Assembly: GCA_951406725.2 (NCBI GenBank)
Contig: OX597815.1
Coordinates: 178,312,001 to 178,376,000 of the forward strand
DNA from: Octopus vulgaris
Lineage: Eukaryota
Direction of reading: 5' to 3'
DNA: 64,000 bases
Shown here piece by piece: positions 15,997-64,000 of the stretch; the first letter of the stretch is position 1, and every line of letters starts with the position of its first letter. The notes beneath the pieces are model-generated. The model was not told where the DNA came from, ran no database searches, and saw only the letters and a program-made list of their open reading frames with translations. A program made the position numbers and the translations under genes.

Positions 15997-17272
15997 CTAG
16001 CATTAAAGACCCGTCGTTGCCGGATCATAGTGCTAGTGCATATATATATATGTATATATATATGTGTACATATTACATGTACATCTATATATATATAGCT
16101 ACACATAAAATACAAAATACAAAGTTATATCTTGATATCGCTAGTGATGACAATACTCAAAATATATAACAGACTGGAATTGTTAGCCCGTCTCTTGTAA
16201 TTTCGATCAATTGTATATTGTCCTCCCTCTTGTATAGAAGTGTGGCTACAATCCGACGGCTGCAGCGAAATTCATTTTTGGACTTTCTTCTATCGAAGAC
16301 ATTTTAACAAAAATACTTCCGTGTAAACGGTGAAAATATTGTCAATTTCCCCAAACACGGACACAATTCAATTTTTAAACAATAACCAAAGGGGGAGGGT
16401 TACGGTTTACAATTATTTAACAAATGCAACACAACAACGCTTCCCTTACGAGGAACCAACAAACGTGATAACAATAGTTAAACAGAAATAATAATAACAA
16501 CAAACCTTACGGTAAACCAAAAAACAGTACGCTGTTGAAGCTATAGGCCTTTATGGATCAGAAATAAGCTAACAGCGGTACTCAGTAGAATGCTTAATGC
16601 TAGCTAATTAGCAAATAATCTAATGTAAAAGCCGTGCACACCTCCATCTGGACAATTCCATTTCTGCACTTAAATTTTATTTATTATTTATTCCCATTCA
16701 TGTGAAACCACTGATTCAAGTTCAAGTCATTGATGCAATTTTATACCAATTGCTATATTTTTACTTTTGCTATGTTACGATAATATTATACTTTAGTTTT
16801 GATTTTAATTATTACTTACTACATATAATTCAATTGTTATTATTATTTTTATTGTTAAAGTGAAAGTATCTGACATAAAATACAGAAATGTTTTTGTTTC
16901 ACTTTTAACACGTAATACTGAAAGTGGAGAAGATATGATATTGCTATGGGCTCGGCTCTAGGCAAGAAGTTGAACATTTTTTGCCCATGGAAACTACATG
17001 GACCCTAAGTAAGGCATGTGTAAATTTGAATGAAATTGGTTGTGTAGTTCTCAAGTTTTAGGGAATCGTAGTGGAGAAGATATGATATTGCTGTGGGCTC
17101 GCCCTAGGCAAAAAGTTTAAAATGTTTTTTGCCGATGACACTCCCCGGACCCTAAGTAAGACATGTGTAAAGTTTGAATGAAATTGGCTGTGTAGTTCTC
17201 AAGTTTTAGGGAAACACACACACAGACAGACAGACAGACAGACACACATTCTCAGTTCTATATATATAAAGA
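15997..17272 (-). mobile_element. Non-autonomous Helitron with an internal ~147-bp tandem duplication
   Basis: Minus strand starts A|TC and ends hairpin-CTAG|T; 3' end related to 28680; duplicated unit at ~16923-17065 and ~17071-17212. Confidence 0.7.
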
Positions 17273-17665: not shown

Positions 17666-17704
17666 CATACGTACATACATACTTATGCATGTATATTATC
17701 TTTT

Positions 17705-17900
17705 TCTCGCCTCAGAAATTAGAGTGCGGCCATGCTGGAGCACCGCATTGTGTTTTTAGTCGAATGAATCTACTCTAATTCTTACTTTTTGAACCTGGTA
17801 CTTATTCTATCGCTTCTTTTGCCGAACTACTAAGTTACGGCGACACAAACACACCAACATTGGTTGTCAAGTGGTGGTGGAGGGACAAACACAGATGCAG
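17705..17900 (-). mobile_element. SINE family B, 3' half
   Basis: TGCGGCCATGCTGGAGCACCGC..TTTTGCCGAAC..TTGTCAAG matches the full copy at 34552-35014. Confidence 0.8.
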
Positions 17901-17907
17901 ACGCACG

Positions 17908-17951
<44 letters not shown>

Positions 17952-18759: not shown

Positions 18760-19133
18760 CAAAATAAGCAGCAAGGATATCCAAAGGTAATGCAGTACGA
18801 TCGTTTCATGCTACTTCATTTAATTAAACAATGTAAGTATTACATCAGTTTTAAAATGTAGAGCAATCTTCAGTCACATATGGAAATTTTTTAATTAAAT
18901 TGACAATATTCACTCTTATTCTTATTCCATTTGCCAACATTACAAAGAGGGTATACATATATATATATATATACGATGGGCTCCTTTCAGTCACCCTCTA
19001 CAAAATCCACTTACAATGGTTTGATTGGTTCGGGGTTATTATAACCGAAGGCACTTGTCCAGGGTGCCATACAGCGGGACTGAACTCGGAACCCTGTTGT
19101 TGAAAAGCAAATTTCTTACCACACAGTCACGCC
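18452..19133 (-). mobile_element. SINE family B interrupted by an insertion in its internal (TA)n
   Basis: 3' half at 18452-18625, 5' half at 18972-19133; unrelated insert at ~18757-18952. Confidence 0.75.
18791..18878 (-). ncRNA. Hammerhead-like motif (weak stem I) in an insert within a SINE
   Basis: Minus strand: tgtga-CTGAAGA-ttgct...agcat-GAAA-cgatcg-TA-ctgca; palindromic stem III ACGATCGT. Confidence 0.5.
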
Positions 19134-19224
19134 AGACTTCAATATTTTTCAATGTGTTTCATTAAGTATAAAATGCTTAACTAGCATAGAACATTAAACT
19201 CCAAGTCAAAACATCGTTCAGTAA

Positions 19225-19478
19225 TTAACCTTATTTACATTTGACGGATATTTCTCCACATCTTGTCTATTGTTAACACAACGTTTCAGCTGATATACTC
19301 TCCAGCCTTCGTCAGCCTTAGGAATGAGAACCCAGGTTCGAAATTTCCCCAAGACACCTGATGAAGGCTGGAGGGTATATCAACCGAAACGTTGTGTTAA
19401 CAACAGACAAGATGAGGACAAATATCTGTCAAATGTAAATAATGTGCATAATTCCTCATCTCTTGAATATAGAACTGT
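19225..19478 (+). mobile_element. Inverted-pLTR-like hammerhead element with 12-bp target-site duplication
   Basis: Inverted arms 19231-19315 and 19358-19442; ATCGTTCAGTAA at 19213-19224 and 19479-19490. Confidence 0.8.
19353..19398 (+). ncRNA. Minimal type I hammerhead ribozyme (PLE type)
   Basis: gacac-CTGATGA-a-ggctg..caacc-GAAAC-GT-T-gtgtt; palindrome AACGTT; mirror core on the minus strand at 19275-19315. Confidence 0.7.
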
Positions 19479-20056
19479 ATCGTTCAGTAAGTTTGAATTT
19501 ATAAAGTACACCTTTAGTTCATCGTTTTGCTGTTTAAAGATGAAATTGATATTTTCTGCCGATTGTTGGATTTTCAGTCAAATTCTATATTTCCTGGATG
19601 TATTTCCTTTTCATCTGAACAGCCTATAGAAAAAGCTGTCTGTCCCTATTCTGCTCGTTAACAATAACACCGGAAAAAAAAGTTGAGAACTAAATAATGC
19701 AATTAAAATGCTTAATGGAATATAGAACGAATGATTTATTATCAACAGCACCTGCGACGAAAATTATTTTTGAGGCTAAACGACATAACTTCACCTCCAG
19801 TTTATTAACACTTATCATTGTTACAACCACAACGAATAACAAAAAAGATGAAGTGCTTCTGTCATTAAAACTCTCCTATCTACCATTAATCTCCCTCTCA
19901 CCCTAAGTTATCATAAATCCTACAAAAACCATCATTTATATAATTATATTTAGCAAAGTACAAACATCGGTCTGCACATTAATAATCACCACCATCCCCG
20001 CCCCACCCCTGTAAACCGACATAATCATCAAACCAGCTGTACAACTTCCATTATGC

Positions 20057-29055: not shown

Positions 29056-30061
29056 TTACCAGTGATAATAAACCAACGCCCACATTCGTTCCTGTTATAT
29101 ACACTTCGTAAAATGGTGATATACACGAGATGATATAGATTTATTTGACTCTAATAAAGTGTAGCTGCTTAGTTTTGTTTTATTGGACGAAAACCTTATT
29201 GTGGCTCGATATCTCAGCATATTGCAATTATACAAAGTCTATTGTATGCAATTTATGCAGCCGGTATTAGAAATCAATATCTGTCATCCGCTATTTCTTC
29301 TCAGCTACCTGGAGGATACAAAGCAACAAAACACTGTGGCTACACGAAACCTTTTGCTGTGGGCTTTCTCTCTCAATGTTGTCGTCGTTCTTGTTGTAGC
29401 AGTAGTTGTTGTTGTTGTTGTTATCGTCGCCCCTGTTGAATAGTTCTGGTTAGTTCTGAACGCGTAGTTATATAGGATGCTTGAGCATTTGTTTCAACGA
29501 TGTGATACGAGTGATATATCCATCTTCCTAGTTTTATTGCCTGTGTGTAGACATACTACATATTCCGATATCAATATCATAAGTTGCAAAGTTGCAGTAG
29601 AATAGTTTGAACGAGCCTCACTCTCTCCATCGCCCTGCTTATTTCTGTAGCCTAAAAAAATCTATGGGTAAAGCTTGTTGTGTGTGTGTGTTTTTTTTTT
29701 GTTTTTGTTTTTTTCACGAGGGGAATATGTGAGACGGTCGTATAGCCATTGTTTGAAATGAGATGATGAGAGGGCAGAACTCTGTATCACTTCATACGTG
29801 AAATTCTATGTTCTGGCAATGTTATTATTGTACATTTCATAGATTTAACGATGGCGTTCAGTTATTTCATATATAGGAGGAGTGGCTGTGTGGTAAGTAG
29901 CTTGTTTACCAACCACATGGTTCCGGGTTCAGTCCCACTGCGTGGCACCATGGGCAAGTGTCTTCTACTATAGCCTCGGGCCGACCAAAGCCTTGTGAGT
30001 GGATTTGGTAGACGGAAACTGAAAGAAGCCCGTCGTATATATATGTATATATATATATATA

Positions 30062-30538
30062 TAAACATAATCAAATAGTGTAATAAAATAAATTATTATT
30101 TCCAGTGGCCTAGCACAAAAAAAAAAAGAATTAGTCATTAGACAATATATTATTCATATAGAAATATAATAAAAGGCTTCCAAATAAGGAAGCGTAGAGC
30201 TAGAAACACAAAAAGGGATAGATTTGTTCGTAAATTTTTTACCGGCATGCTCTCTGTCGCCGGGTATGATTTGCGTCTGCGCAGAGGTTTGGAAAGTTAA
30301 GATATACAAACCGTTAGATCTACACGTGCTTCTAACAGTCTGTGCATCTAGGATTAAGAAGGCTCCCCACTGAAGAACCTTGCCTTAGCAAATATATTCT
30401 GTTTGTTTGCTAAATATAGGTAGAAACTGATCGGTCTGGGATACAGCTGAGATGGTAAATGTTTTTAATTTTCATTCCTTTCATGAATTTATCCCTTTTT
30501 GTGTTTCTAGCACTACGCTTCCTTATTTGGAAGCCTTT

Positions 30539-30543
<5 letters not shown>
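30062..30543 (+). mobile_element. Hammerhead element with an inverted 5' copy of its 3' end
   Basis: Inverted arms 30172-30225 and 30485-30538; flanked by (TA)n. Confidence 0.75.
30366..30440 (+). ncRNA. Type I hammerhead ribozyme with extended stem II
   Basis: ccca-CTGAAGA-acct..ttagcaaata/tgtttgctaa..aggt-a-GAAA-ctgatcgg-TC-tggg; predicted GUC site at 30436. Confidence 0.7.
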
Positions 30544-30730: not shown

Positions 30731-31003
30731 TACTCTCTCTTTTTACTCTTTTACTTGTTTCAGTCATTTGACTGCGGCCATGGTGGAGCAGCGCCTTTAA
30801 TCGAGCAACTCGACCCCAGGACTTATTCTTTGTAAGCCCAGTACTTATTCTATCGGTCTCTTTTGCCGAACCGCTAAGTGACGGGGACGTAAACACACCA
30901 GCATCGGTTGTCAAGCAATGCTAGGGGTACAAACACAGACACACAAACACATACACATACATACACATACATATATATACATATATACGACAGGCTTCTT
31001 TCA
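30731..31003 (-). mobile_element. SINE family B, 3' part
   Basis: Near-identical to 34552-34860. Confidence 0.85.
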
Positions 31004-32003: not shown

Positions 32004-33080
32004 CAATAGGGATCGTTATCACAGAAATGTCAATATGAAGTGTAAAGGGGAGGACAGGTGAGGTTTACCCGTGGAAAGAAAAGCCTACGGAAAAGACCAC
32101 GGTAACCTCGGTCAATGAAGTCACATTTTATATTTCTTTTTTTTTTTTTTTTGCAAATAAGCAACTCTCTGTTTTCGATTTCTGGGTTCATAGGACTATG
32201 CTCAAGGTGGCTTCGTCATTCATACGTGCCATTCTTGCTACATTCACCCATCTTTTTTTAAAACATTCGCTAGACAAAACTTGCCTCTCTACTCTCACTT
32301 TCCTTTTCAAGTGGTACTTGAAGAAGTTGATGAGAGATTGACCAGAGAGGAAAGTGTTTGTCTCCAATCCTTTCAGACGCGTCCACCAGATACATTCCTT
32401 CGCCATAGCCACAAGGATGATGAAAATAGCTCTTCCTTCCCGTTTGAAGGAAGGAGGCGTGACAATATTGACGATAGACTCAGCTGATAAACCCACTCGT
32501 CCCACACGTGACAGCAGTTGTTCGACATAAGCCCACAGGTCGGAAATTGTTGGACACTGAACGAGTGCGTGCAGAACGGTTTCGTCGCTCTGACCGCATC
32601 TCGGGCAGGTCGGCCCCGTGTTTCTCGAGCCGTGTCTGTAGAGCTTATCCCGAACGGGTAGCGCTTCTCGGTAGCACTGCCAGGCCAGGGATCTCTGGAA
32701 GTTGTCCATGGGCCCTGGCCCGAAAGTCGTCCTGAACAGGCGGGTCAGGTACTCCTCGTCGACGTCCAGGTTCGCCCCGAGCTCGTCGTCGTACCTCCCC
32801 TCCACTAAACCCCTATAGAATGCTTTGGTTGTGTTGAAGTCACTTAAGGTCGACCCAGGACGGCAGAGTTGCTTGAGAGCAACGCGACACTCGCGGTGCC
32901 ATTCGCCCTTCCTCGGCCTCTTTTTGATCCACGACTGCAGTTCGGTCATGGAGACGAGCTGCGGGAAAGCGTGCCTCACAAACGGCGACCACACCTGTTC
33001 ACCGTCGTCTACATAGAGCCAGAGATGTCGCAGTCTCAGCGCGTGTCTGCGCATCATCAACCACGGCATGCCCAGCCCTC
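31806..33080 (-). mobile_element. 5'-truncated Tx1/L1-clade LINE inserted in (GATA)n
   Basis: Open ORF2 3' end, 3' UTR with AATAAA, and (TATC)n on both flanks. Confidence 0.85.
32188..33069 (-). CDS. LINE ORF2 C-terminal fragment (zf-RVT-type CCHC region); truncated, not a host gene
   Basis: GLGMP at the truncation; W..YREALPVRDKL; CPRCGQSDETVLHALVQC; IWWTR; uninterrupted 293 codons. Confidence 0.8.
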   Translation of the reverse strand: MPWLMMRRHALRLRHLWLYVDDGEQVWSPFVRHAFPQLVSMTELQSWIKKRPRKGEWHRECRVALKQLCRPGSTLSDFNTTKAFYRGLVEGRYDDELGANLDVDEEYLTRLFRTTFGPGPMDNFQRSLAWQCYREALPVRDKLYRHGSRNTGPTCPRCGQSDETVLHALVQCPTISDLWAYVEQLLSRVGRVGLSAESIVNIVTPPSFKREGRAIFIILVAMAKECIWWTRLKGLETNTFLSGQSLINFFKYHLKRKVRVERQVLSSECFKKRWVNVARMARMNDEATLSIVL

Positions 33081-34551: not shown

Positions 34552-34780
34552 TACTCTTTTACTCTTTTACCTGTTTCAGTCATTTGACTGCGACTATGCT
34601 GGAGCACCGCCTTTAGTGGAGTACATCGACCCCGGGACTTATTCTTTGTAAGCCCAGTACTTATTCTATCGGTCTCTTTTGCCGAACCGCTAAGTGACGG
34701 GGACGTAAACACACCAGCACCGGTTGTCAAGCAATGCTAGAGGGACAAACACAGACACACAAACATACACACACAAACAT

Positions 34781-34849
<69 letters not shown>

Positions 34850-35014
34850 TACGACAGGCTTCTTTCGGTTTCCGTCTACCAAATCCACTCACAAGGCTTT
34901 GGTCGGCCCGAGTCTATAGCAGAAGACACTTGCCCAAGGTGCCACGCAATGGGACTGAACCTGGAACTATGTGGTTGGTTAGTAAGCTACTTACAACACA
35001 GCCACTCCTGCGCC
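34552..35014 (-). mobile_element. Full-length SINE family B
   Basis: tRNA-like head GGCGCAGGAGTGGCTGTG, internal (TA)/(TG) spacer and AAAAGAGT-repeat tail. Confidence 0.9.
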
Positions 35015-36589
35015 TCTGCAATGTTTAATATTTAATAATATATACTATTATGAAGTAATGATAAAACTAAGAAGTAAATATGAACACTGCAAGTGATTTA
35101 ATCAATATGATTAGCAAAACACAAATGCTTTAGTTATAAACAAACGATCTCACATCAAGCTTTTTACCTAACAAGTGTAATTCGGATATTTTCGATTTTA
35201 TGAGCTCGGATTTAGATTATGAACTAAATTCTTAATATTTATAATATTCCCTAGATTATTATTGCAAGGAAGCTACAGCAGATAACCGCACTTCAATTAC
35301 AAGATTTATTCTGAATCTTTAATTCTTTTGAATTTTGCAGTATTTTCCAATTAATAAATTTGTTTTCCACTCTATATTAATAAAACTGAGTTCGAGAAAA
35401 TTAATAGCAGCTGACGTCGGCATAAAATATTTCGTAAATCTCATAGATTTTGATAATTTCTTATGCCGCAGAGAGACGAAATTCCAGACGATTCTATCAA
35501 AGCTGATCTTCGGTACCATTTATTTCAATCTTTGTTTTAGCACTGAGAATAAATGTTTGAAGACTGTGCAAAGAGAACAGACATGAGAATAAAGATTAAG
35601 AAAGATGTAATCAGATGAAGAGCGCGTGTAATTATATGTTCAGAGGCCAAAGTGGGTGATGATGGTGGTAGTGGTGCAGGAGACTAAATTCCAACATATT
35701 CTCCGGTTTCTCTGGCAGAGGGATAACATTGAGGTATTCCAAGAGGTAATAAAAAATGACTGATCGTAAAAATTTCTTTTTGTTACTGGTATATTTTCCC
35801 AACAATTAGAACTTTCTATATGCGTTCTTTTGCTTGCGGTTAAATTTCCCCTGAAAGGAATAGCGATTTGCTTCGTGTAACAAGTTTAATTTTGCGAATG
35901 GTAACAAACCACTTGAACTTAGATAATTTAGTTTTCTCAGACCGCATTTTCCTCATTTCTATTCTCATTCTAATTTTCATTAATTATTCGGTATATGGGA
36001 GTTAATGATATGTCTAATGTTTATTCATCAAGCTGTCTTATGGTTCCATAGTTACTGCATTATAAAACATACTTTCTTCTAGATTAACAAATGTTGGTAT
36101 TATGTACTTGGACCAAAGATGATTTTAAAAAACTATCAGATCTCAAAGAAAGAGAAGTAGGCACATAAATCGCAACAAACATCAAAGTTAAACAATAAAT
36201 TTGAAGGACAAAATAATTAAAATTTGAAACAAACATTAAAATAAAATTCTCCATATTTAGAAATTAAAATTCACAAAATCATTGTAAACAAATTTTAACA
36301 AAACTTTCGTTCAATTATTTTTAAATCAATTATTCTGTAAATGTTCAGTATTTCCTTTTCTTGTTATTTCTTTCTTAGAGTTGTATATTTATGTAGGAAA
36401 TAACGGATATGGGTATTTTTCGGTAGGGAAATAAGGAAACAATGTTTGATGTCGGTAAGAATATTAATTTTATAATAAATAGTGGGGCTGGACGAGTGTC
36501 TCGTTAGATATGTCTGTATAGCTATGTGTATTATGTATGTATGTATGTTTATACACAAATGTATATACAAGTATGTATATGGATATACT

Positions 36590-38273: not shown

Positions 38274-39173
38274 TATGAAGTCTGATGAAAAAGTATCGGG
38301 TCTGTTGCTATAGTAACGGAACTAAAGTATGAAGAGTAAAGCCGCTTGTCACAGCTTGAATATGAACTCGCTTGCGCATGCACGATAAGCTATAACGTTG
38401 TCGCTCACTTCTGCGGTTTATAGCAGTGCTTGGAATTACATTGAGTACAGTTTGGTCGTCTCACCGAGAAAACTGAGCAGAGAATCTACATAAATTTTTG
38501 CCAAAATCATGAGAATACCTGCGCAGAGACCTACGTAAAAAGTGTATGGAGAGGAGCGTATGAGCTGGAAACGAGTGTATGGGACGTTCAAATTTTTGTG
38601 AGCTAGCCCACAATATATTGACTTTGACGTACGTTCTGGGAGACCCGTGACCAGTAAAGCTGATAAAAACATCACAGATGTGCATACAGCTGTGCGGAAA
38701 ACCCTACGAATCACCGTGCGTGGGTTGTCGAGGGATGTGAACATTAGTTACGGTTCAGTTCAGTCCTTTCTCATAGAAGATTTAGGTATGAGACTAATGT
38801 CTGTCAAGTTTCTGCCAAAGCTGCTTTCAGTTGCAGCAGTATTTGGTTAAGCACAACATTCTCCAGGCGCGACAACCACCATTTTCCACAGATCTCGCAC
38901 CTTGCGACATTTTCCTCTTTCCAAAAATGAAATCTCATTTGAAAGGAACAAGATGTGAAGACGTCGAGGAAGACGAAGAGAATGTGACGATGCAGCTGTT
39001 CGTTATCCGAAAAATGGAGAACCCTGGAATGCTTCCTTCAATGGAAAAGACGCTGGGTGAAATGTGTGACTTCAGAAGGGGAACACTTCAAAGGAGATTA
39101 AATGCCGGATTGATATATGTTGTAGCTTTCTCTTTGCAGCATCATTTCCGATACCTGTCTATCAGACCTTGTA
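38274..39173 (+). mobile_element. Internally deleted mariner transposon with TIRs
   Basis: TIRs TATGAAGTCTGATGAAAAAGTATCGG / CCGATACCTGTCTATCAGACCTTGTA; RSGRP..RITVRGLS..LGMRLMSVKFLPKLL joined to QPPFSTDLAPCDIFLFPKMK. Confidence 0.85.
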
Positions 39174-39294: not shown

Positions 39295-39330
<36 letters not shown>

Positions 39331-39336
<6 letters not shown>

Positions 39337-42300
39337 AAAGGGCTTAGTAAAATAAATTACTTTGCCGCATACTGAACTCATTAGAAATAGCAGCTAAAAA
39401 ACTTTTTTTAAACTATTTCTAATACTTAAAGAAAACCTCTCTCATATAGTGTTTGCTCAACTCAACTCACGAAAGTTTGGGGGTAAATACATCAAAAAAT
39501 CAAATGCAAAGGTTATTTGAGAACGTACGTTTCAAGATTAGTCAACACGACACTTCTATCATCAGCTCAGAAACTCCTTGGTTTGGATTTGAAAACACTG
39601 AAAGTGAGAGCATACCCTTTCGGCTTCTCATCGCTTTCGAAGATCTGCTCGTAACTAACAGTGCCAACAAACTCAAATATGCAAGCGAAGAATTTCTGTT
39701 CTCCCCTTTCCACCAGCGTGGGTTAAAATCAGCAAACACTATGCTTATTTCGGTAAAATCCGAAGCATTAATTAGAGGGAGATTAATTATAATTTCAACA
39801 ATTGAGGGTAAAATTAATTAATTATTAATCAATTTCACCAAGTGTTCAGTATGCAAAGGGACCATTTAAGGCGAATTCAAATTATTACATTATATAAAAG
39901 GGCTTAGTAAAATAAATTACTTTGCCGCATACTGAACTCATTAGAAATAGCAGCTAAAAAACTTTTTTTAAACTATTTCTAATACTTAAAGAAAACCTCT
40001 CTCATATAGTGTTTGCTCAACTCAACTCACGAAAGTTTGGGGGTAAATACATCAAAAAATCAAATGCAAAGGTTATTTGAGAACGTACGTTTCAAGATTA
40101 GTCAACACGACACTTCTATCATCAGCTCAGAAACTCCTTGGTTTGGATTTGAAAACACTGAAAGTGAGAGCATACCCTTTCGGCTTCTCATCGCTTTCGA
40201 AGATCTGCTCGTAACTAACAGTGCCAACAAACTCAAATATGCAAGCGAAGAATTTCTGTTCTCCCCTTTCCACCAGCGTGGGTTAAAATCAGCAAACACT
40301 ATGCTTATTTCGGTAAAATCCGAAGCATTAATTAGAGGGAGATTAATTATAATTTCAACAATTGAGGGTAAAATTAATTAATTATTAATCAATTTCACCA
40401 AGTGTTCAGTATGCAAAGGGACCATTTAAGGCGAATTCAAATTATTACATTATATAAAAGGGCTTAGTAAAATAAATTACTTTGCCGCATACTGAACTCA
40501 TTAGAAATAGCAGCTAAAAAACTTTTTTTTAAACTATTTCTAATACTTAAAGAAAACCTCTCTCATATAGTGTTTGCTCAACTCAACTCACGAAAGTTTG
40601 GGGGTAAATACATCAAAAAATCAAATGCAAAGGTTATTTGAGAACGTACGTTTCAAGATTAGTCAACACGACACTTCTATCATCAGCTCAGAAAGTCCTT
40701 GGTTTGGATTTGAAAACACTGAAAGTGAGAGCATACCCTTTCGGCTTCTCATCGCTTTCGAAGATCTGCTCGTAACTAACAGTGCCAACAAACTCAAATA
40801 TGCAAGCGAAGAATTTCTGTTCTCCCCTTTCCACCAGCGTGGGTTAAAATCAGCAAACACTATGCTTATTTCGGTAAAATCCGAAGCATTAATTAGAGGG
40901 AGATTAATTATAATTTCAACAATTGAGGGTAAAATTAATTAATTATTAATCAATTTCACCAAGTGTTCAGTATGCAAAGGGACCATTTAAGGCGAATTCA
41001 AATTATTACATTATATAAAAGGGCTTAGTAAAATAAATTACTTTGCCGCATACTGAACTCATTAGAAATAGCAGCTAAAAAACTTTTTTAAAACTATTTC
41101 TAATACTTAAAGAAAACCTCTCTCATATAGTGTTTGCTCAACTCAACTCACGAAAGTTTGGGGGTAAATACATCAAAAAATCAAATGCAAAGGTTATTTG
41201 AGAACGTACGTTTCAAGATTAGTCAACACGACACTTCTATCATCAGCTCAGAAACTCCTTGGTTTGGATTTGAAAACACTGAAAGTGAGAGCATACCCTT
41301 TCGGTTTCTCATCGCTTTCGAAGATCTGCTCGTAACTAACAGTGCCAACAAACTCAAATATGCAAGCGAAGAATTTCTGTTCTCCCCTTTCCACCAGCGT
41401 GGGTTAAAATCAGCAAACACTATGCTTATTTCGGTAAAATCCGAAGCATTAATTAGAGGGAGATTAATTATAATTTCAACAATTGAGGGTAAAATTAATT
41501 AATTATTAATCAATTTCACCAAGTGTTCAGTATGCAAAGGGACCATTTAAGGCGAATTCAAATTATTACATTATATAAAAGGGCTTAGTAAAATAAATTA
41601 CTTTGCCGCATACTGAACTCATTAGAAATAGCAGCTAAAAAACTTTTTTTAAACTATTTCTAATACTTAAAGAAAACCTCTCTCATATAGTGTTTGCTCA
41701 ACTCAACTCACGAAAGTTTGGGGGTAAATACATCAAAAAATCAAATGCAAAGGTTATTTGAGAACGTACGTTTCAAGATTAGTCAACACGACACTTCTAT
41801 CATCAGCTCAGAAACTCCTTGGTTTGGATTTGAAAACACTGAAAGTGAGAGCATACCCTTTCGGCTTCTCATCGCTTTCGAAGATCTGCTCGTAACTAAC
41901 AGTGCCAACAAACTCAAATATGCAAGCGAAGAATTTCTGTTCTCCCCTTTCCACCAGCGTGGGTTAAAATCAGCAAACACTATGCTTATTTCGGTAAAAT
42001 CCGAAGCATTAATTAGAGGGAGATTAATTATAATTTCAACAATTGAGGGTAAAATTAATTAATTATTAATCAATTTCACCAAGTGTTCAGTATGCAAAGG
42101 GACCATTTAAGGCGAATTCAAATTATTACATTATATAAAAGGGCTTAGTAAAATAAATTACTTTGCCGCATACTGAACTCATTAGAAATAGCAGCTAAAA
42201 AACTTTTTTTAAACTATTTCTAATACTTAAAGAAAACCTCTCTCATATAGTGTTTGCTCAACTCAACTCACGAAAGTTTGGGGGTAAATACATCAAAAAA

Positions 42301-45300
42301 TCAAATGCAAAGGTTATTTGAGAACGTACGTTTCAAGATTAGTCAACACGACACTTCTATCATCAGCTCAGAAACTCCTTGGTTTGGATTTGAAAACACT
42401 GAAAGTGAGAGCATACCCTTTCGGCTTCTCATCGCTTTCGAAGATCTGCTCGTAACTAACAGTGCCAACAAACTCAAATATGCAAGCGAAGAATTTCTGT
42501 TCTCCCCTTTCCACCAGCGTGGGTTAAAATCAGCAAACACTATGCTTATTTCGGTAAAATCCGAAGCATTAATTAGAGGGAGATTAATTATAATTTCAAC
42601 AATTGAGGGTAAAATTAATTAATTATTAATCAATTTCACCAAGTGTTCAGTATGCAAAGGGACCATTTAAGGCGAATTCAAATTATTACATTATATAAAA
42701 GGGCTTAGTAAAATAAATTACTTTGCCGCATACTGAACTCATTAGAAATAGCAGCTAAAAAACTTTTTTTAAAACTATTTCTAATACTTAAAGAAAACCT
42801 CTCTCATATAGTGTTTGCTCAACTCAACTCACGAAAGTTTGGGGGTAAATACATCAAAAAATCAAATGCAAAGTTTATTTGAGAACGTACGTTTCAAGAT
42901 TAGTCAACGCGACACTTCTATCATCAGCTCAGAAAGTCCTTGGTTTGGATTTGAAAACACTGAAAGTGAGAGCATACCCTTTCGGTTTCTCATCGCTTTC
43001 GAAGATCTGCTCGTAACTAACAGTGCCAACAAACTCAAATATGCAAGCGAAGAATTTCTGTTCTCCCCTTTCCACCAGCGTGGGTTAAAATCAGCAAACA
43101 CTATGCTTATTTCGGTAAAATCCGAAGCATTAATTAGAGGGAGATTAATTATAATTTCAACAATTGAGGGTAAAATTAATTAATTATTAATCAATTTCAC
43201 CAAGTGTTCAGTATGCAAAGGGACCATTTAAGGCGAATTCAAATTATTACATTATATAAAAGGGCTTAGTAAAATAAATTACTTTGCCGCATACTGAACT
43301 CATTAGAAATAGCAGCTAAAAAACTTTTTTAAACTATTTCTAATACTTAAAGAAAACCTCTCTCATATAGTGTTTGCTCAACTCAACTCACGAAAGTTTG
43401 GGGGTAAATACATCAAAAAATCAAATGCAAAGGTTATTTGAGAACGTACGTTTCAAGATTAGTCAACACGACACTTCTATCATCAGCTCAGAAACTCCTT
43501 GGTTTGGATTTGAAAACACTGAAAGTGAGAGCATACCCTTTCGGCTTCTCATCGCTTTCGAAGATCTGCTCGTAACTAACAGTGCCAACAAACTCAAATA
43601 TGCAAGCGAAGAATTTCTGTTCTCCCCTTTCCACCAGCGTGGGTTAAAATCAGCAAACACTATGCTTATTTCGGTAAAATCCGAAGCATTAATTAGAGGG
43701 AGATTAATTATAATTTCAACAATTGAGGGTAAAATTAATTAATTATTAATCAATTTCACCAAGTGTTCAGTATGCAAAGGGACCATTTAAGGCGAATTCA
43801 AATTATTACATTATATAAAAGGGCTTAGTAAAATAAATTACTTTGCCGCATACTGAACTCATTAGAAATAGCAGCTAAAAAACTTTTTTAAACTATTTCT
43901 AATACTTAAAGAAAACCTCTCTCATATAGTGTTTGCTCAACTCAACTCACGAAAGTTTGGGGGTAAATACATCAAAAAATCAAATGCAAAGGTTATTTGA
44001 GAACGTACGTTTCAAGATTAGTCAACACGACACTTCTATCATCAGCTCAGAAACTCCTTGGTTTGGATTTGAAAACACTGAAAGTGAGAGCATACCCTTT
44101 CGGCTTCTCATCGCTTTCGAAGATCTGCTCGTAACTAACAGTGCCAACAAACTCAAATATGCAAGCGAAGAATTTCTGTTCTCCCCTTTCCACCAGCGTG
44201 GGTTAAAATCAGCAAACACTATGCTTATTTCGGTAAAATCCGAAGCATTAATTAGAGGGAGATTAATTATAATTTCAACAATTGAGGGTAAAATTAATTA
44301 ATTATTAATCAATTTCACCAAGTGTTCAGTATGCAAAGGGACCATTTAAGGCGAATTCAAATTATTACATTATATAAAAGGGCTTAGTAAAATAAATTAC
44401 TTTGCCGCATACTGAACTCATTAGAAATAGCAGCTAAAAAACTTTTTTAAAACTATTTCTAATACTTAAAGAAAACCTCTCTCATATAGTGTTTGCTCAA
44501 CTCAACTCACGAAAGTTTGGGGGTAAATACATCAAAAAATCAAATGCAAAGGTTATTTGAGAACGTACGTTTCAAGATTAGTCAACACGACACTTCTATC
44601 ATCAGCTCAGAAACTCCTTGGTTTGGATTTGAAAACACTGAAAGTGAGAGCATACCCTTTCGGTTTCTCATCGCTTTCGAAGATCTGCTCGTAACTAACA
44701 GTGCCAACAAACTCAAATATGCAAGCGAAGAATTTATGTTCTCCCCTTTCCACCAGCGTGGGTTAAAATCAGCGAACACTATGCTTATTTCGGTAAAATC
44801 CGAAGCATTAATTAGAGGGAGATTAATTATAATTTCAACAATTGAGGGTAAAATTAATTAATTATTAATCAATTTCACCAAGTGTTCAGTATGCAAAGGG
44901 ACCATTTAAGGCGAATTCAAATTATTACATTATATAAAAGGGCTTAGTAAAATAAATTACTTTGCCGCATACTGAACTCATTAGAAATAGCAGCTAAAAA
45001 ACTTTTTTAAACTATTTCTAATACTTAAAGAAAACCTCTCTCATATAGTGTTTGCTCAACTCAACTCACGAAAGTTTGGGGGTAAATACATCAAAAAATC
45101 AAATGCAAAGGTTATTTGAGAACGTACGTTTCAAGATTAGTCAACACGACACTTCTATCATCAGCTCAGAAACTCCTTGGTTTGGATTTGAAAACACTGA
45201 AAGTGAGAGCATACCCTTTCGGCTTCTCATCGCTTTCGAAGATCTGCTCGTAACTAACAGTGCCAACAAACTCAAATATGCAAGCGAAGAATTTCTGTTC

Positions 45301-46167
45301 TCCCCTTTCCACCAGCGTGGGTTAAAATCAGCAAACACTATGCTTATTTCGGTAAAATCCGAAGCATTAATTAGAGGGAGATTAATTATAATTTCAACAA
45401 TTGAGGGTAAAATTAATTAATTATTAATCAATTTCACCAAGTGTTCAGTATGCAAAGGGACCATTTAAGGCGAATTCAAATTATTACATTATATAAAAGG
45501 GCTTAGTAAAATAAATTACTTTGCCGCATACTGAACTCATTAGAAATAGCAGCTAAAAAACTTTTTTAAAACTATTTCTAATACTTAAAGAAAACCTCTC
45601 TCATATAGTGTTTGCTCAACTCAACTCACGAAAGTTTGGGGGTAAATACATCAAAAAATCAAATGCAAAGGTTATTTGAGAACGTACGTTTCAAGATTAG
45701 TCAACACGACACTTCTATCATCAGCTCAGAAACTCCTTGGTTTGGATTTGAAAACACTGAAAGTGAGAGCATACCCTTTCGGCTTCTCATCGCTTTCGAA
45801 GATCTGCTCGTTACTAACAGTGCCAACAAACTCAAATATGCAAGCGAAGAATTTCTGTTCTCCCCTTTCCACCAGCGTGGGTTAAAATCAGCAAACACTA
45901 TGCTTATTTCGGTAAAATCCGAAGCATTAATTAGAGGGAGATTAATTATAATTTCAACAATTGAGGGTAAAATTAATTAATTATTAATCAATTTCACCAA
46001 GTGTTCAGTATGCAAAGGGACCATTTAAGGCGAATTCAAATTATTACATTATATAAAAGGGCTTAGTAAAATAAATTACTTTGCCTTAAATGGTCCCTTT
46101 GCATACTGAACACTTGGTGAAATTGATTAATAATTAATTAATTTTACCCTCAATTGTTGAAATTATA
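39331..46167 (-). repeat. Tandem array of 12 x ~560-bp hammerhead-bearing units, a partial 13th unit and a terminal 85-bp inversion, in (TA)n
   Basis: Periods of 559-561 bp from the ORF track; units nearly identical; 46083-46167 is the reverse complement of ~45947-46031. Confidence 0.95.
39518..39569 (-). ncRNA. Type I hammerhead ribozyme, first of 12 copies at ~560-bp spacing
   Basis: tgag-CTGATGA-tagaagtgtcgtgttgactaatctt-GAAA-cgtacg-TT-ctca; palindromic stem III ACGTACGT; U.U at the base of stem II. Confidence 0.7.
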
Positions 46168-46340
46168 TATATATATATATATATATAAAGGTAAGATCAA
46201 AGTGTAGGAAGATAGTAAGCTTCGATCAGTCCGTAGAAGATGTGAAGAATAACTTTGAGGAACAAACAAGTGAAATGTAAAGTCACTGAAAGAGGACCAG
46301 ATTTGTTAGAGCAGCGATCAACTTGATAAGCAACATATAC

Positions 46341-48953: not shown

Positions 48954-48997
<44 letters not shown>

Positions 48998-49123
48998 CAG
49001 CAACAATCAAGGAACGGCCATAATAGGCCATTCACCCACTAGAAATAACAGCCAGAAGCTTTAACCGCAAAATAACGTCAATTCCGTAAACCAGGAGAAA
49101 ATTGAAAAACATTTACCCTGTAA

Positions 49124-49228
49124 TTTCTTAGACGATGCACCGTTTCATCTTCTGTTTAATGGAAAACTAACCTGATTAAATTAAATCAAGCCAATCTACC
49201 AGAGGCCCTTAGATTCATCAGTAAGAAA
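49124..49228 (-). ncRNA. Type I hammerhead ribozyme (inverted copy)
   Basis: Reverse complement of 49846-49950. Confidence 0.8.
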
Positions 49229-49845
49229 TAGCCAAACCGGAACAGATATTTTTCACGAGGCATTCTCATTGCTACCTCGTCAATATCTGACCTAAAATTT
49301 TCAAATCGTCGCACTCGCGCCAAATTTAACGGCAGCAAATAAATATAAGCCGCCGATTCCATTACGGAATTAACCAGAAAATTCATAATTAATCAATATA
49401 GGGTGGCAAAAAAATTTTGTAGAATTCTTTTGCCACCAGCGGTGCATCGTCTAAGAAATTACAGGGTAAATGTTTTTCAATTTTCTCCTGGTTTACGGAA
49501 TTGACGTTATTTTGCGGTTAAAGCTTTTGGCTGTTATTTCTAGTGGGTGAATGGCCTATTATGGCCGTTCCTTGATTGTTGATGTTGAACTTAAAATGGT
49601 TTATGACTATTTAATTTTTTTCCCACTAGGCCGCTGGTGGCAAAAGAATTCTACAAAATTTTTTTTGCCACCCTATATTGATTAATTATGAATTTTCTGG
49701 TTAATTCCGTAATGGAATCGGCGGCTTATATTTATTTGCTGCCGTTAAATTTGGCGCGAGTGCGACGATTTGAAAATTTTAGGTCAGATATTAACGAGGT
49801 AGCAATGAGAATGCCTCGTGAAAAATATCTGTTCCGGTTTGGCTA

Positions 49846-49950
49846 TTTCTTACTGATGAATCTAAGGGCCTATGGTAGATTGGCTTGATTTAATTTAATC
49901 AGGTTAGTTTTCCATTAAACAGAAGATGAAACGGTGCATCGTCTAAGAAA
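49846..49950 (+). ncRNA. Type I hammerhead ribozyme, intact core, long branched stem II
   Basis: tttctta-CTGATGA-atct...agat-GAAA-cggtgcatcg-TC-taagaaa; perfect 7-bp stem I; GUC site at 49943. Confidence 0.85.
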
Positions 49951-50336
49951 TTACAGGGTAAATGTTTTTCAATTTTCTCCTGGTTTACGGAACTGACGTT
50001 ATTTTGCGGTTAAAGCTTTTGGCTGTTATTTCTAGTGGGTGAATGGCCTATTATGGCCGTTCCTTGATTGTTGATGTTGAACTTAAAATGGTTTATGACT
50101 ATTTAATTTTTTCCCACTAGGCCGCTGGTGGCAAAAGAATTCTACAAAATTTTTTTTGCCACCCTATATTGATTAATTATGAATTTTCTGGTTAATTCCG
50201 TAATGGAATCGGCGGCTTATATTTATTTGCTGCCGTTAAATTTGGCGCGAGTGCGACGATTTGAAAATTTTAGGTCAGATATTGACGAGGTAGCAATGAG
50301 AATGCCTCGTGAAAAATATCTATTCCGGTTTGGCTA

Positions 50337-50441
50337 TTTCTTACTGATGAATCTAAGGGCCTATGGTAGATTGGCTTGATTTAATTTAATCAGGTTAGTT
50401 TTCCATTAAACAGAAGATGAAACGGTGCATCGTCTAAGAAA
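50337..50441 (+). ncRNA. Type I hammerhead ribozyme (second tandem copy)
   Basis: Same motif 491 bp downstream; GUC site at 50434. Confidence 0.85.
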
Positions 50442-50662
50442 TTACAGGGTAAATGTTTTTCAATTTTCTCCTGGTTTACGGAATTGACGTTATTTTGCGG
50501 TTAAAGCTTTTGGCTGTTATTTCTAGTGGGTGAATGGCCTATTATGGCCGTTCCTTGATTGTTGATGTTGAACTTAAAATGGTTTATGACTATTTAATTT
50601 TTTCCCACTAGGCCGCTGGTGGCAAAAGAATTCTACAAAATTTTTTTGCCACCCTATATTGA

Positions 50663-50697
<35 letters not shown>

Positions 50698-56023: not shown

Positions 56024-56124
56024 TGTATATATATGTGTGGGGGGTATGTGTGTGTGTGTGTATGTGTGCGTGTAAATATATATATGTATATATAAATGTG
56101 TGTGCGTGTGTTTGTATGTATATT

Positions 56125-56320
56125 TTATTGTTTTATTTGTTTCCGTCATTTGACTGTGGCCATGCTGGAGCACCAGCTTTAGTCAAATCGACCCCATAAC
56201 TTATTTTTTGTAAGCCTAGTACTTATTTTATCGGCCTTTTTTGCCGGACCACAAAGTTACGGTGACGTAAACACACAAACATCGGTTGTCAAGCGATGGT
56301 GGAGGCACAAACACAAACAT

Positions 56321-56367
<47 letters not shown>

Positions 56368-56521
56368 CGACGGGCTTCTGTCTACCAAATCCACTTACAA
56401 GACTTTGCTTGTCCCGAGGCTATAGTAGGAGACACTTACCCAAGGTGTCATGCAGTGGGACTAAACCTGGAACCATGTGGCTGGTAAGCAAGCTTCTTAC
56501 TACACAGCCCTTCCTGCGCCT
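56125..56521 (-). mobile_element. SINE family B
   Basis: Homologous to 34552-35014. Confidence 0.85.
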
Positions 56522-56816: not shown

Positions 56817-58081
56817 CAGGTATTGGACAAAATAATGGAAACACCCAGCATCATAGCATCATAATTTTGAAATATCTGTAAAACCGTCAAAAGCTTATTT
56901 ATTTTTATGTTTTTCCATTTATTAGGATTGCTTAATATGTTTTCCTAAAATTGCTGTTTCTTTTCAGATATCATCAGAAAAGTTTTATTAAAATTCATTA
57001 AAATGACAGGTCTATCTGTCTTTCAAAGGGGTCAAATTGTTGGTGCTCGTATGACAGGCGCTAGCGTAACAAAAACAGCCGAAATGTTTGGTGTATGAAG
57101 AAGTACTGACTCGAAAGTAATGACAGCTTTTGAGAAAGAGGGAAGAAAACCTCCTCGTCGAAGCAAAACTCCAGAAGAAAACCAAAACTTTCAGATAGAG
57201 ACCGTCGGACTCTTATGCGAATTGTGAGAAAGGATCACCAAAGTACAGCTCCCAAAATTACTGCAGTGCTTAATGACCACCTTGAGAACGTAGTTTCCAC
57301 AAAAACTGTTCGCTGGGAGCTGCACAAAGCCGGACTTCACGAGAGGGCTGCAATCAGAAAACCACTACTTTCAAAAACAAACATTGCAAGGCGTTTAGAG
57401 TGGGGTAAAGACCTACATAATTGGCCCCTGGAGCAGTGGAAGAATGTTATTTTCTCAGATGAGTCATCCTTTACCTTATTTCCGACCCCCGGCCGAGTAT
57501 ATGTGTGGAGACAGCCAAAAGAATCATTTGACCCAGACTGCCTTCTTAAACATGGAGGGGGATCTGTGATGATCTGGGGAGGCTACATCTTTGAAATCCG
57601 CCGGCCCAATGGTCCCCTTCATGGCAGAATTAATAGTCAAGACTAGTTAAGCATTTTATCTGATCAAATTCATACTATGGTTGTGGAACTGTTTCCAGGG
57701 GAGAAACACAATCTTTCAGTATGATAATGCACCAATTCAGACAGCTAAAGTTATAATTGAATGGCACGAGGAACATTCTAGTGAAGTTGAACATCTTATT
57801 TGGCCATCACAATCCGCAGATCTCAATATTATTGAATGTTTATGGTGCATTTCCGAAAAATAAGTAAGGAGTCGATATCCTCCACTATCATCAGTACAAG
57901 AACTGGAGACTATTTTAGCTGAAGAATGGCAAAAAATTCCTTTGGAAACAATTCAAACTTTGTACGAGTCTATACCTCGTAGAATTCAAGCTGTAATTAC
58001 TGCTAGAGGAGGTCTTACCCCATTTTAAAATATATTTGTTTGAAATTTTAAGGTGTTTCCATTATTTTGTCCAAACCCCTG
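56817..58081 (+). mobile_element. Full-length Tc1-like transposon with a disrupted transposase
   Basis: TIRs CAGG..TTGGACAAAATAATGGAAACACC / GGTGTTTCCATTATTTTGTCCAAACCCCTG. Confidence 0.92.
57003..58028 (+). pseudogene. Tc1 DD34E transposase pseudogene
   Basis: WKNVIFSDES, KHGGGSVMIWG, FQYDNAP, WPSQSADLNIIE; several stops and frameshifts. Confidence 0.9.
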
Positions 58082-61563: not shown

Positions 61564-63280
61564 ATGTCACTCTCGTAGAATAACATTCTAGAAACTGGAA
61601 ACAATACAAGGTTAAAACGTTCTTCTTACAATCTATAAATGTTATTCCTCATCTACCATTATTCTTCTCTTTCGTTTAGTCCACACATCTATAAAACAAG
61701 CCAGAACAATTCAAATAGATGGCTTACTTCTTCAGACAGACAATATTTTATCTTCGTACAGTTATTGACATTTTACAAATCATAATAAGTCATATAAGTG
61801 AGAGAGCAACTTCTACTAAAACATTCTAAACTAACTGTAATGGTCGTTTGCTTTAGATAAGTATTCAATTAAGGCTAATCAACAATTGTCGACTAATATA
61901 CTACACATCCTCTTTATCGATTCCTGTCACAGTTACAACAGAGTAGAGTCCCCTGATCTTACTATAATTGTGGACAAATCTCATCCATGCAGTTTTTGTT
62001 TCCTTTTTACACAACTTCTATATTTATATCCCCCCATGCCTTGTACAAAGTATTTTTTCACCAAGCTTTCCCTTTAGAATTTCAACTCACTGGAATTCTT
62101 TCTCTGCCAGCATTTTCTACCCACATTGACATTCATCAACCTCATTGTCATAACCAGTAAAGTAAGTCATGCGGGGTGGGGGGTCGTAGGTACTGCACCA
62201 CTTACGAGTATCTCATAAAAACCAGTAACTCTTTGTCCTCTACAAAACGATGTCATGAAGATCTTGTTGAAACTCATCAACCAATTCCTTATTCAACATT
62301 CAGAAACATAAGAAAGAAAAGGTTCACTACCTCTCTAGATCTAGGTATATAAAAAAAAATAAATGATTTCCTAGATAGTTGCAGTGTATCTCCATACTTT
62401 ATTATAACTTCTCCCATCACGATTGTAAAATATCAATGTCTTATAGATAGAAGGTTCGCACTTTGCAGAGAAAATTTCAAATCTTCGGATTAACAGAGCC
62501 TTTCCAAAGAACCGTTGCTCCATACGCTGTTGCAATCACAAGTCGCCACTTTTGCAATTATACTTGTAACAGTAACAAGAGAAAAAATCAACTATAAATA
62601 GAAAACATGGAAGGAAAACAGTCGTTTATTGAGAAGATTTGGTGCTACGATATTGGAATTGACAAGTGGCTGTAAAATTATTTAAGCGTTTTTGTTAAAT
62701 GTACGCGTGTTGTACCATCTATTTATTGTAAGGAGACGATATGCTGCTTCCGGAGCAGTATATAACTATTACCAGTGCGTGTCTTGCATTCGTACAAGAC
62801 CACATATATTTCAAAGACGAAAATTGTCGATTGTCTACACTCCAACTAACAGGGATACGGCTTTGTCGATGGCAGAATGTTGAAAAGGAACGTTGAGCTG
62901 ACGAAATTAAATTTGGTAAAGTAGAATGGGACCACGCAATACGAAGCATTTCTTTCTTCAATTAAATGGTCGTTTTTTTTTTTTTTAATAATTAATTCAC
63001 TTCAGCGACCATTAAGAACAGAACAACGTATCATAGGGAAGTTAGCAGCGCCATCTACTTTTACATTTTCCAATAAACTTAATAATGTCATTTCTTAAAA
63101 TGGCATATTCCAATATTTCCGGATTTGTCCCACCTCGAGTTTCTACAGAGTGCTTTAAACTAAATAAACAAACTCCTTCTACAACACAGAAATAATCGGT
63201 TGGTTTATTCTTATAGACAATGCTCATCAAATATTCGTAGCTATGTCCATTAATCATTATATATACATATATATACATAT

Positions 63281-63480
63281 ACTCTTTTACTTGTTTCAGT
63301 CATGTGACTGTGATCATGCTGGAGCACCGCTTTTAGTCGAGCAAATCGACCCCAGGACCTATTCGTTGTAAGCCTAGTACATATCCTATTTGTCTCATTT
63401 GCCGAACCACTAAGTTACGGGGACGTAAACACACCAGCATCGTAAACACATCAGCACACACACAAACACATACACACGCT

Positions 63481-63525
<45 letters not shown>

Positions 63526-63663
63526 GACGGGCTTCTTTCAGTTTCCGTCTACCAAATCCACTCACAAGTCTTTGGTCTGCCCGAGGCTATAATAGAAGAC
63601 ACTTGCCCAAGGCGCCACGCAGTGGGACTGAATCTGCAACTATGTGGTTGGTAAGCAAGCTAC
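63281..63663 (-). mobile_element. SINE family B
   Basis: Homologous to 34552-35014. Confidence 0.88.
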
Positions 63664-63776
63664 TTTATTTCACAAATTTTGCGGGCTGGACAGAAATATT
63701 GATGAGATGAGTGATGAAATAAATTGATATTAATGGAAAAAGACAGAAAACGCCCACCGATTTTTTGCTTCTCTAA

Positions 63777-64000
63777 AACATTATTATTTTTTACACAAAA
63801 AACAAACCGAGGTATTGAACCTCTTACTTCCATTTTACAATTATTGGAATTAATAGTCAATTTACAAATTAAAACATTATTATTTTTTGCACAAAAAACA
63901 AACCTCTTACTTCCATTTTACAATTATTGGAATTAATAGTCCATTTACAAATTGAAATATTATTTTTTACACAAAAAACAAAACGAGGTATTGAACCTCT
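63777..64000. repeat. AT-rich minisatellite, ~80-95-bp unit, running off the window end
   Basis: TATTATTTTT..CACAAAAAACAAA..AACCTCTTACTTCCATTTTACAATTATTGGAATTAATAGTC is repeated. Confidence 0.85.

What the first reader, a model, noticed from the sequence alone, without database searches (positions are those of the whole stretch)
39331..46167. 12 x 560-bp 'satellite' is a tandem hammerhead (retrozyme-like) concatemer
Each unit has on the minus strand tgag-CUGAUGA-[stem II]-GAAA-cguacg-UU-cuca (first copy 39518-39569). The array starts and ends in (TA)n and terminates in an 85-bp inversion. A minus-strand transcript could self-process into ~560-nt monomers, and the palindromic stem III suits dimeric hammerheads between adjacent units. 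Inference: the array came from rolling reverse transcription of a circular RNA, or from later tandem amplification of a pLTR. Caveats: the GUU triplet, 4-bp stem I and U.U at the base of stem II may lower activity.
Basis: partly seen in the sequence, partly recalled or inferred. Interest (0 to 1): 0.85.

Follow-up and report, generated by a model that had tools for sequence, protein, structure and literature searches.

The report
Octopus ribozyme repeat with Penelope-type ends
Twelve near-identical 560-base repeats, each carrying a self-cutting 'hammerhead' RNA motif, sit in a TA microsatellite of an octopus-like genome with the ends that Penelope-type retrotransposons leave; the kind of element (a retrozyme) is known, but its junctions offer a direct way to test which enzyme copies such elements and whether it rolls round an RNA circle.

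Summary
Observation confirmed: 12 units of 559-561 bp plus 36 bp, (TA)n at both ends, an 85-bp terminal inversion, and an intact type I hammerhead on the minus strand of every unit (5 of 20,000 shuffles match). It belongs to a high-copy, diverged family in an octopod genome. Three more hammerhead insertions in the same window share the layout: inversion on the ribozyme strand's 5' side, two of them also in (TA)n. In the three TA-targeted ones the two host junctions fall at two fixed sites about 100 nt apart (101, 99, about 106); the fourth has a 12-bp target duplication and the classic 30-nt Penelope 'tail'. Best reading: a non-autonomous, Penelope-mobilised non-LTR retrozyme, primed from both target strands. 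Not shown: cleavage (the active fold lies 7-10 kcal/mol above the minimum), transcription, circles, the partner enzyme, or that all 12 units arose in one event. New member of a known kind; the junction anatomy makes the rolling-circle model testable.

The parts
39298..39329 (.). left (TA)16 target microsatellite
39329..46085 (-). tandem arm: 12 units of 559-561 bp plus 36 bp; its TA junction (39329-39331) is 193 nt downstream of the ribozyme cut in the RNA (proximal initiation site)
39518..39569 (-). type I hammerhead, first copy (cores start at 39565, 40125, 40686, 41246, 41806, 42366, 42927, 43486, 44045, 44605, 45164, 45724); predicted cut 39522|39521
39788..39889 (-). 101-nt stretch between the two junction sites ('long tail'); 39788 is the distal site, +294 from the cut; holds a 15-bp hairpin at 39807-39839 and one strand (39844-39854) of an 11-bp helix with 39927-39937
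   Evidence: TA tract joined at 39788 with another flank in run X2
46083..46167 (+). inverted arm, 85 bp, reverse complement of 45947-46031; joined to the tandem arm by 3-nt GCC microhomology, to the target by TATA
46164..46187 (.). right (TA)12 target microsatellite
48997..50667 (+). sister insertion 2: TA - 446-bp inverted arm - 2.5 x 491-bp units with hammerhead (cores 49853, 50344; inverted copy 49221) - TA; junction sites +134 and +233
30064..30541 (+). sister insertion 3: TA - about 160-bp inverted arm - about 320-bp arm with hammerhead (core 30370) - TA; junction sites +104 and about +210
19225..19478 (+). insertion 4: inverted pair of minimal hammerheads (core 19358), 12-bp target duplication (19213-19224, 19479-19490), ends about 30 nt apart; internal control for classic Penelope anatomy

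Best explanation
A non-autonomous retroelement of the non-LTR retrozyme kind, copied by the GIY-YIG endonuclease/reverse transcriptase of a (TA)n-targeting Penelope-like element (Hydra clade most likely; Naiad or Neptune possible). Steps: (1) minus-strand RNA is made (inferred); (2) hammerheads cut multimers into 560-nt monomers, probably as dimers or with protein help, and a host ligase closes them (inferred from other retrozymes); (3) the PLE enzyme nicks both strands of a (TA)n tract and primes from each, at two internal sites about 100 nt apart next to a hairpin (junction positions shown, enzyme inferred); (4) one cDNA runs across 12 ribozyme junctions, the other stops after 85 nt, and the two are joined head to head by 3-nt microhomology (product shown, route inferred). 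Confidence 0.85 for a PLE-mobilised hammerhead element. How the 12 units arose: one rolling pass on a circle 0.45, later growth of a short tandem 0.25, uncut multimeric transcript 0.2, assembly inflation 0.1.
For: Hammerhead in 12 of 12 units, 5 of 20,000 shuffles. Outside the two arrays the descriptor is expected 0.017 times and hits 3 times; 2 of those 3 lie in insertions with an inversion. In 4 of 4 inversion-bearing insertions the inversion is on the 5' side of the ribozyme strand, the PLE pattern (PMC8557442). Six of six ends of insertions 1-3 abut (TA)n, which covers 1502 of 64,000 bases. Junction sites are 101, 99 and about 106 nt apart; insertion 4 shows 30 nt, the length of the known tail between two RT start sites; the PAc protein cuts and extends both target strands and starts inside the RNA (PMC11167929). 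The distal site recurs with a different flank in run X2, and summed contig depth steps up there and falls away from it in runs X1, X13, X16 (Spearman -0.83, -0.85, -0.74; X2 -0.38), as 5'-truncated copies of a minus-strand RNA would give (a hint only). Hydra-clade hammerheads: U.U in 14, GUU in 10, stem I of 4 bp or less in 13 of 25 families (my count). Octopus holds Hydra-1_Obim and three Naiads, all listed as (TA)n. In insertion 2 all 6 differences among the 4 copies are private to one copy, inverted arm included, as one event from one template predicts. Unit RNA is highly structured, z -6.4.
Against: Active fold of this hammerhead is 10.3 kcal/mol above the minimum in the circle, 7.2 in a short transcript, 19.4 as double hammerhead; stem I probability 0.03 or less at 7 transcript lengths, against up to 0.43 for insertion 2 (tertiary contacts not modelled). 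Core conservation is not significant: 0 of 39 listed variant positions fall in the 27 core/stem I/stem III positions, P 0.15, and 30 of 70 rows were hidden; one loose-end consensus (X13, 4 contigs) shows C3G, an inactivating change. No partner ORF among 148 of 197 filtered frames of the window scanned; no visible homology to the Hydra-1_Obim 3' end, by eye, and that element's own hammerhead lacks U.U. 11 of the 14 U.U families come from one species. Two substitution columns are shared by non-adjacent units (3+7; 4+7+10), which a single pass on one circle does not predict. In PAc the ribozyme is dispensable for insertion and uncut RNA is the main template; 8 of 9 predicted Xenopus retrozyme dimers did not cleave. 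Tail homology of array 1 to insertion 2 is not significant (266 of 2000 shuffles).
Confidence: 0.85

Rival explanations
1. PLE-type insertion of about one to three units, later expanded to 12 by unequal crossing-over or gene conversion; the ribozyme is a passenger.
For: Variants shared by units 3+7 and 4+7+10, the last with a period of three; Li et al. propose local amplification of PLE termini; insertions 2 and 3 have 2.5 and under 1 unit.
Against: Only 2 shared substitution columns, which could be consensus errors; 5 of 7 are private; in insertion 2 tandem copies and inverted arm are equally diverged with private changes only.
Confidence: 0.25
2. One insertion event from an uncut linear read-through transcript of an older array, no circle needed.
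For: Ends lie at internal sites, not at the cut; active fold disfavoured; uncut RNA is the main PAc template; would explain shared variants.
Against: All 12 units share changes that set them apart from the family majority (6 positions with over 75% other-letter depth in X1, read; 5 are invariant in the array), so the source array would itself have to be homogeneous; 6.8 kb must survive 12 ribozymes.
Confidence: 0.2
3. Unit number is inflated or collapsed by the assembly; the element is real but not a 12-mer.
For: Near-identical units, differences concentrated at one homopolymer; the window has a 100-N scaffold gap elsewhere.
Against: Units carry private substitutions; both flanks join cleanly; no gap in or near the array.
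Confidence: 0.1
4. Ordinary satellite DNA or a DNA-transposon derivative with a chance hammerhead-like motif.
For: No Rfam hit; active fold not the minimum.
Against: 5 of 20,000 shuffles; three further hammerhead insertions of the same polarity; TA junction recurring at the same base in another locus; no terminal inverted repeats other than the one-sided inversion.
Confidence: 0.04

Closest known systems
Metazoan non-LTR retrozymes (Cervera and de la Pena 2020, PMC7229834; Li, Clavereau and Pollet 2026, bioRxiv 10.64898/2026.07.22.740005)
   Same: Non-coding head-to-tail repeats, one type I hammerhead per unit, GC 34%, highly self-paired RNA; axolotl HHR_Amex2 has the same 2-bp helix III + tetraloop and U.U at the base of helix II.
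   Different: Unit 560 bp (150-450 bp in the 2020 paper; 51-972 in the 2026 preprint). The main texts I read describe no (TA)n targeting, terminal inversion or fixed junction sites ('inverted' 0 and 'target site' 0 occurrences) and no cephalopod case. Circles and cleavage shown there, untested here.
Hydra-clade Penelope-like elements, including Hydra-1_Obim of Octopus bimaculoides (Craig et al. 2021, PMC8557442)
   Same: (TA)n target, hammerhead near the 3' end with frequent U.U, GUU and short stem I, occasional 5' inverted copy.
   Different: Those encode RT and GIY-YIG; this has no such ORF and no visible homology to the Hydra-1_Obim 3' end; only a 12-nt word is shared with its 5' end (weak).
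Poseidon PLE of Anolis (PAc; Frangieh et al. 2024, PMC11167929)
   Same: Internal initiation at two sites by a stem-loop, AT-rich target, both strands cut and extended, hammerhead not folding unaided.
   Different: Its sites are 30-40 nt apart; here about 100 nt, with one site used at each end of the insertion.
Non-autonomous Chlamys elements such as MRC1 (PMC8557442)
   Same: Non-coding PLE dependants with multicopy head-to-tail insertions.
   Different: Green algae; Chlamys mostly lack canonical hammerheads; similarity to an autonomous family's 3' end is shown there, not here.

Membership tests
non-LTR retrozyme | tandem repeats with a type I hammerhead in consecutive units | tested here: met
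   12 of 12 units
non-LTR retrozyme | non-coding; no LTR/PBS/PPT layout; GC below 45% | tested here: met
   GC 34%; 123-aa open frame of the unit has no Pfam match; no tRNA; PBS/PPT judged from layout only
non-LTR retrozyme | high-copy dispersed family | tested here: met
   4689, 1837, 2027 contigs laid in X1, X13, X16, spread from under 90% to over 99% identity; no copy number obtainable
non-LTR retrozyme | highly self-paired monomer RNA | tested here: met
   z -6.4, 0 of 100 shuffles; listed variants break fewer pairs than random placement, 10 vs 15.8, P 0.019, but the same holds on the plus strand, 8 vs 15.5, P 0.002
non-LTR retrozyme | hammerhead able to adopt the active fold | tested here: inconclusive
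   all core residues present, but active fold 7-19 kcal/mol above the minimum
non-LTR retrozyme | core conserved among dispersed copies | tested here: inconclusive
   0 of 39 listed positions in the core, P 0.15, 30 rows hidden; one C3G consensus, one consensus changing only the free position 7 and U10.1 to A
non-LTR retrozyme | self-cleavage, transcription, circular RNA | not testable with these tools
   only contigs were available
Penelope-like element (autonomous) | ORF with RT and GIY-YIG endonuclease | tested here: not met
   none in the unit or among 148 frames scanned
non-autonomous PLE dependant | partial tandem with inverted, 5'-truncated copy at the 5' end | tested here: met
   same polarity in 4 of 4 insertions
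non-autonomous PLE dependant | microsatellite target of Hydra/Naiad/Neptune type | tested here: met
non-autonomous PLE dependant | two internal initiation sites 30-40 nt apart (tail) | tested here: inconclusive
   two sites found, but about 100 nt apart; 30 nt only in insertion 4
non-autonomous PLE dependant | sequence similarity to the pLTR of an autonomous family | tested here: inconclusive
   no genome held; motif look-ups in one paper's consensus set found none; Hydra-1_Obim compared by eye only

The most novel reading that the evidence does not exclude
Octopods carry several families of large hammerhead RNA circles that borrow a (TA)n-targeting Hydra-type Penelope enzyme, which primes from both target strands at two fixed sites about 100 nt apart and rolls round the circle; this array would be the fossil of 12 uninterrupted turns, and the junctions a direct record of how animal retrozymes integrate.
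Probability: 0.35. Interest if true: 0.75.

Novelty: new member of a known kind. Interest (0 to 1): 0.5.

Why it matters
The class has been known since the newt satellites and was named in 2020; the link to PLEs so far rests on co-occurrence and pLTR similarity, and rolling reverse transcription of the circle is a proposal. These loci give junction-level predictions: target (TA)n, start sites +193 and +294, one used per end, head-to-head joining by 3-nt microhomology. They can be tested by a genome census and an in vitro priming assay on circular versus linear RNA. One strict hammerhead insertion per about 16 kb in this window also suggests such elements are a sizeable, unannotated part of octopod repeat DNA (one window only).

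Tried and rejected
No whole genome held, so no census of copies and no search for the partner. Rfam: 0 hits at gathering score in the window, only weak unrelated hits on either array. Pattern scans of metagenome and viral contigs gave 20 and 2 loci; none aligns to the four elements and none restores stem I: chance hits. Sequencing runs: no RNA holder listed (8 of 20 holders are only guessed to be RNA); not used for or against expression. The 'goes back 560' joints only show that the unit continues across my arbitrary cut; not counted as evidence of tandems or circles. ARAGORN: no tRNA. Coding role of the 123-aa frame: no Pfam match. Linear monomer as template: rejected, since neither end is at the cut and the array crosses 12 cut sites. 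Homology between array 1 and insertions 2-4: not significant; insertions 2 and 3 are related (0 of 200 and 3 of 2000 shuffles). A 12-nt word shared with the 5' end of Hydra-1_Obim could be chance over a 2.5-kb consensus; given no weight. Earlier scan notes hold no look-alike of either array and nothing for this genome.

Full report
Observation. The array is as described. Twelve units of 559-561 bp run from 39331, followed by 36 bp of a thirteenth. Only 9 of 561 columns vary, two of them at one homopolymer; mean pairwise difference is 0.33%. (TA)n tracts lie at 39298-39329 and 46164-46187. The last 85 bp (46083-46167) are the reverse complement of 45947-46031, overlapping the tandem arm by GCC. 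Each unit has, on the minus strand, a complete type I hammerhead with the cut at 39522|39521 in the first copy. A strict descriptor matched 5 of 20,000 dinucleotide shuffles of the unit. Rfam finds nothing, but it also misses the textbook hammerhead of the neighbouring array.

Host and family. No genome is held. A LINE fragment in the window has its only animal-named homologues in Argonauta and Octopus (2 of 14 hits), and the microsatellite load fits; I call the host an octopod by inference. The unit is held by 20 of 24 listed runs, 10 studies, 4 organism labels. Laid on 4 of them, it drew 4689 (X1), 108 (X2), 1837 (X13) and 2027 (X16) contigs, from under 90% to over 99% alike: a high-copy, diverged family in organisms A, C and D. 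X1 may be the window's own sample. At 6 positions over 75% of X1's depth reads another letter (my reading), and 5 of these are invariant across the 12 units, so the array descends from one variant monomer.

Sister insertions. The descriptor also hits at 49853, 50344 and 49221, at 30370, 19358 and 4901; outside the two arrays 0.017 hits are expected and 3 are seen. Insertion 2 (48997-50667) is TA, a 446-bp inverted arm, 2.5 units of 491 bp, TA, with a 3-nt CGG joint. Insertion 3 (30064-30541) is TA, inverted arm, under one unit, TA. Insertion 4 (19225-19478) is an inverted pair of minimal hammerheads with a 12-bp target duplication. The hit at 4901 has no sound stem II and no inversion that I found. 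In all four insertions the inversion lies 5' on the ribozyme strand, the arrangement described for Penelope-like elements (PMC8557442, passages). Insertions 2 and 3 are related in sequence; array 1 is not detectably related to them.

Junction anatomy. Counting from the ribozyme cut, the two host junctions are +193 and +294 in array 1, +134 and +233 in insertion 2, +104 and about +210 in insertion 3: 101, 99 and about 106 nt apart. Insertion 4 gives 30 nt. The match was noticed after the fact and two of the three are kin, so the rough P of 0.002 overstates it. In PAc the 30-40-nt tail is the stretch between two internal RT start sites, and the protein cuts and extends both target strands (PMC11167929, parts 1-2 of 4). 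I infer that each end here is a priming event at one of two family-specific sites. In arrays 1 and 2 the distal site follows a strong hairpin by 19 and about 14 nt. Independent hints: in X2 one contig joins a TA tract and a different flank to base 39788, the same base as the window's inversion end, a second shows a TA tract just before 39805, and a third 12 loose TA-rich letters at 39899 (3 of 24 loose ends shown, 257 hidden). Summed depth steps up three- to five-fold at 39788 and declines away from it in X1, X13 and X16. Summed contig depth is no copy number, bins are correlated and the peak is AT-rich, so this is a hint of 5'-truncated copies of a minus-strand RNA, not proof.

The ribozyme. 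U.U at the base of stem II, GUU and a stem I of 4 bp or less occur in 14, 10 and 13 of 25 Hydra-clade families in File S2 of PMC8557442 (my count, 26 rows, one family twice; 11 of the 14 from one species). Nearly all Hydra families insert into (TA)n, and Octopus has Hydra-1_Obim and three Naiads listed as (TA)n; Naiads lack canonical hammerheads. Axolotl HHR_Amex2 has a 2-bp helix III and U.U, cleaves 22% in an hour as monomer and much better as dimer (PMC7229834). Against activity: the active fold is 10.3 kcal/mol above the minimum in the circle and 19.4 as a double hammerhead, though that is 9 better than two single folds; insertion 2 is within 1.3. Stem I probability stays at 0.03 or less. 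These models ignore tertiary contacts, and PAc's hammerhead needs protein. Among listed family variants none touches the 27 core and stem I/III positions, which is not significant (P 0.15; 30 of 70 rows hidden). One X16 consensus changes only the free position 7 and U10.1 to A within the core; one X13 consensus has C3G (4 contigs each). Eight of nine predicted Xenopus dimers did not cleave. I put cleavage of a dimer at about 0.55.

Mechanism. Shown: product structure, polarity, target, junction sites, microhomologies, homogeneity. Inferred: transcription, cleavage, circularisation, the PLE partner, priming from both strands. A fold-back of the long cDNA onto itself would give the same inversion. 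A linear monomer cannot be the template, since the array crosses 12 cut sites and neither end is at a cut. Rolling on a circle predicts private differences only: true for 6 of 6 in insertion 2, and for 5 of 7 substitution columns in array 1, where units 3+7 and 4+7+10 share changes. Later unequal exchange, a multimeric template or consensus error could each explain that.

Comparison and novelty. It works like a non-LTR retrozyme and meets the sequence-level criteria; the RNA-level criteria could not be tested. It is not an autonomous PLE. Papers seen: PMC7229834 (passages, Results part 2 of 3, Discussion; its supplement could not be read, and may list cephalopod cases); bioRxiv 10.64898/2026.07.22.740005 (parts 1-3 of 5 and passages; supplements closed); PMC8557442 (passages, Hydra section, parts of the supplement); PMC11167929; PMC7761336 (passages). 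Ten searches (listings only) returned no paper on octopod retrozymes or on a 100-nt tail; the library lacks most subscription papers and Repbase was not available, so these families may already be catalogued. Verdict: real, new member of a known kind, with junction features that make an open mechanistic question testable.

Noticed in passing
window 48997-50667: Second TA-flanked hammerhead array (2.5 x 491 bp, 446-bp inversion) with an 8-bp stem I and GUC; a better candidate for cleavage than the array in the finding. Its forward arm begins 9-12 nt before the ribozyme cut.
   Followed up: yes
window 30064-30541: Older TA-flanked hammerhead insertion related to the 491-bp family, inserted into the TA tract of a dispersed SINE-like repeat.
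   Followed up: yes
window 19213-19490: Minimal-hammerhead insertion with inversion, 12-bp target duplication and 30-nt tail; the two arms differ at the free core position 7.
   Followed up: yes
window 4895-4941: Isolated hammerhead-like motif on + strand (6-bp stem I, intact core, poor stem II, CUA triplet); possibly a decayed copy.
   Followed up: partly
window 17699-17939, 18952-19133, 29878-30069, 30741-31002, 34557-35015, 56123-56521, 63280-63665: Dispersed SINE-like family with internal microsatellites, 72-92% alike.
   Followed up: no
window 32191-33078 (-): 3' end of a LINE with zf-RVT domain, open for 296 codons, GC-rich against the background.
   Followed up: partly
window 57134-57860 (+), 38798-39100 (+), 4034-4237 (-): Tc1/mariner transposase fragments (Pfam HTH_Tnp_Tc3_2, DDE_3, HTH_48; the 38798 piece recognised by eye, no Pfam hit); the one at 38798 lies just left of the array.
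   Followed up: no
window 39607-39618 (-): 12-nt word identical to one near the 5' end of the published Hydra-1_Obim consensus; may be chance.
   Followed up: partly
window 11848-11947: 100-N scaffold gap.
   Followed up: no
window 16923-17213 and 63818-63982: Two-copy tandem duplications of 147 and 83 bp without hammerhead hits.
   Followed up: no
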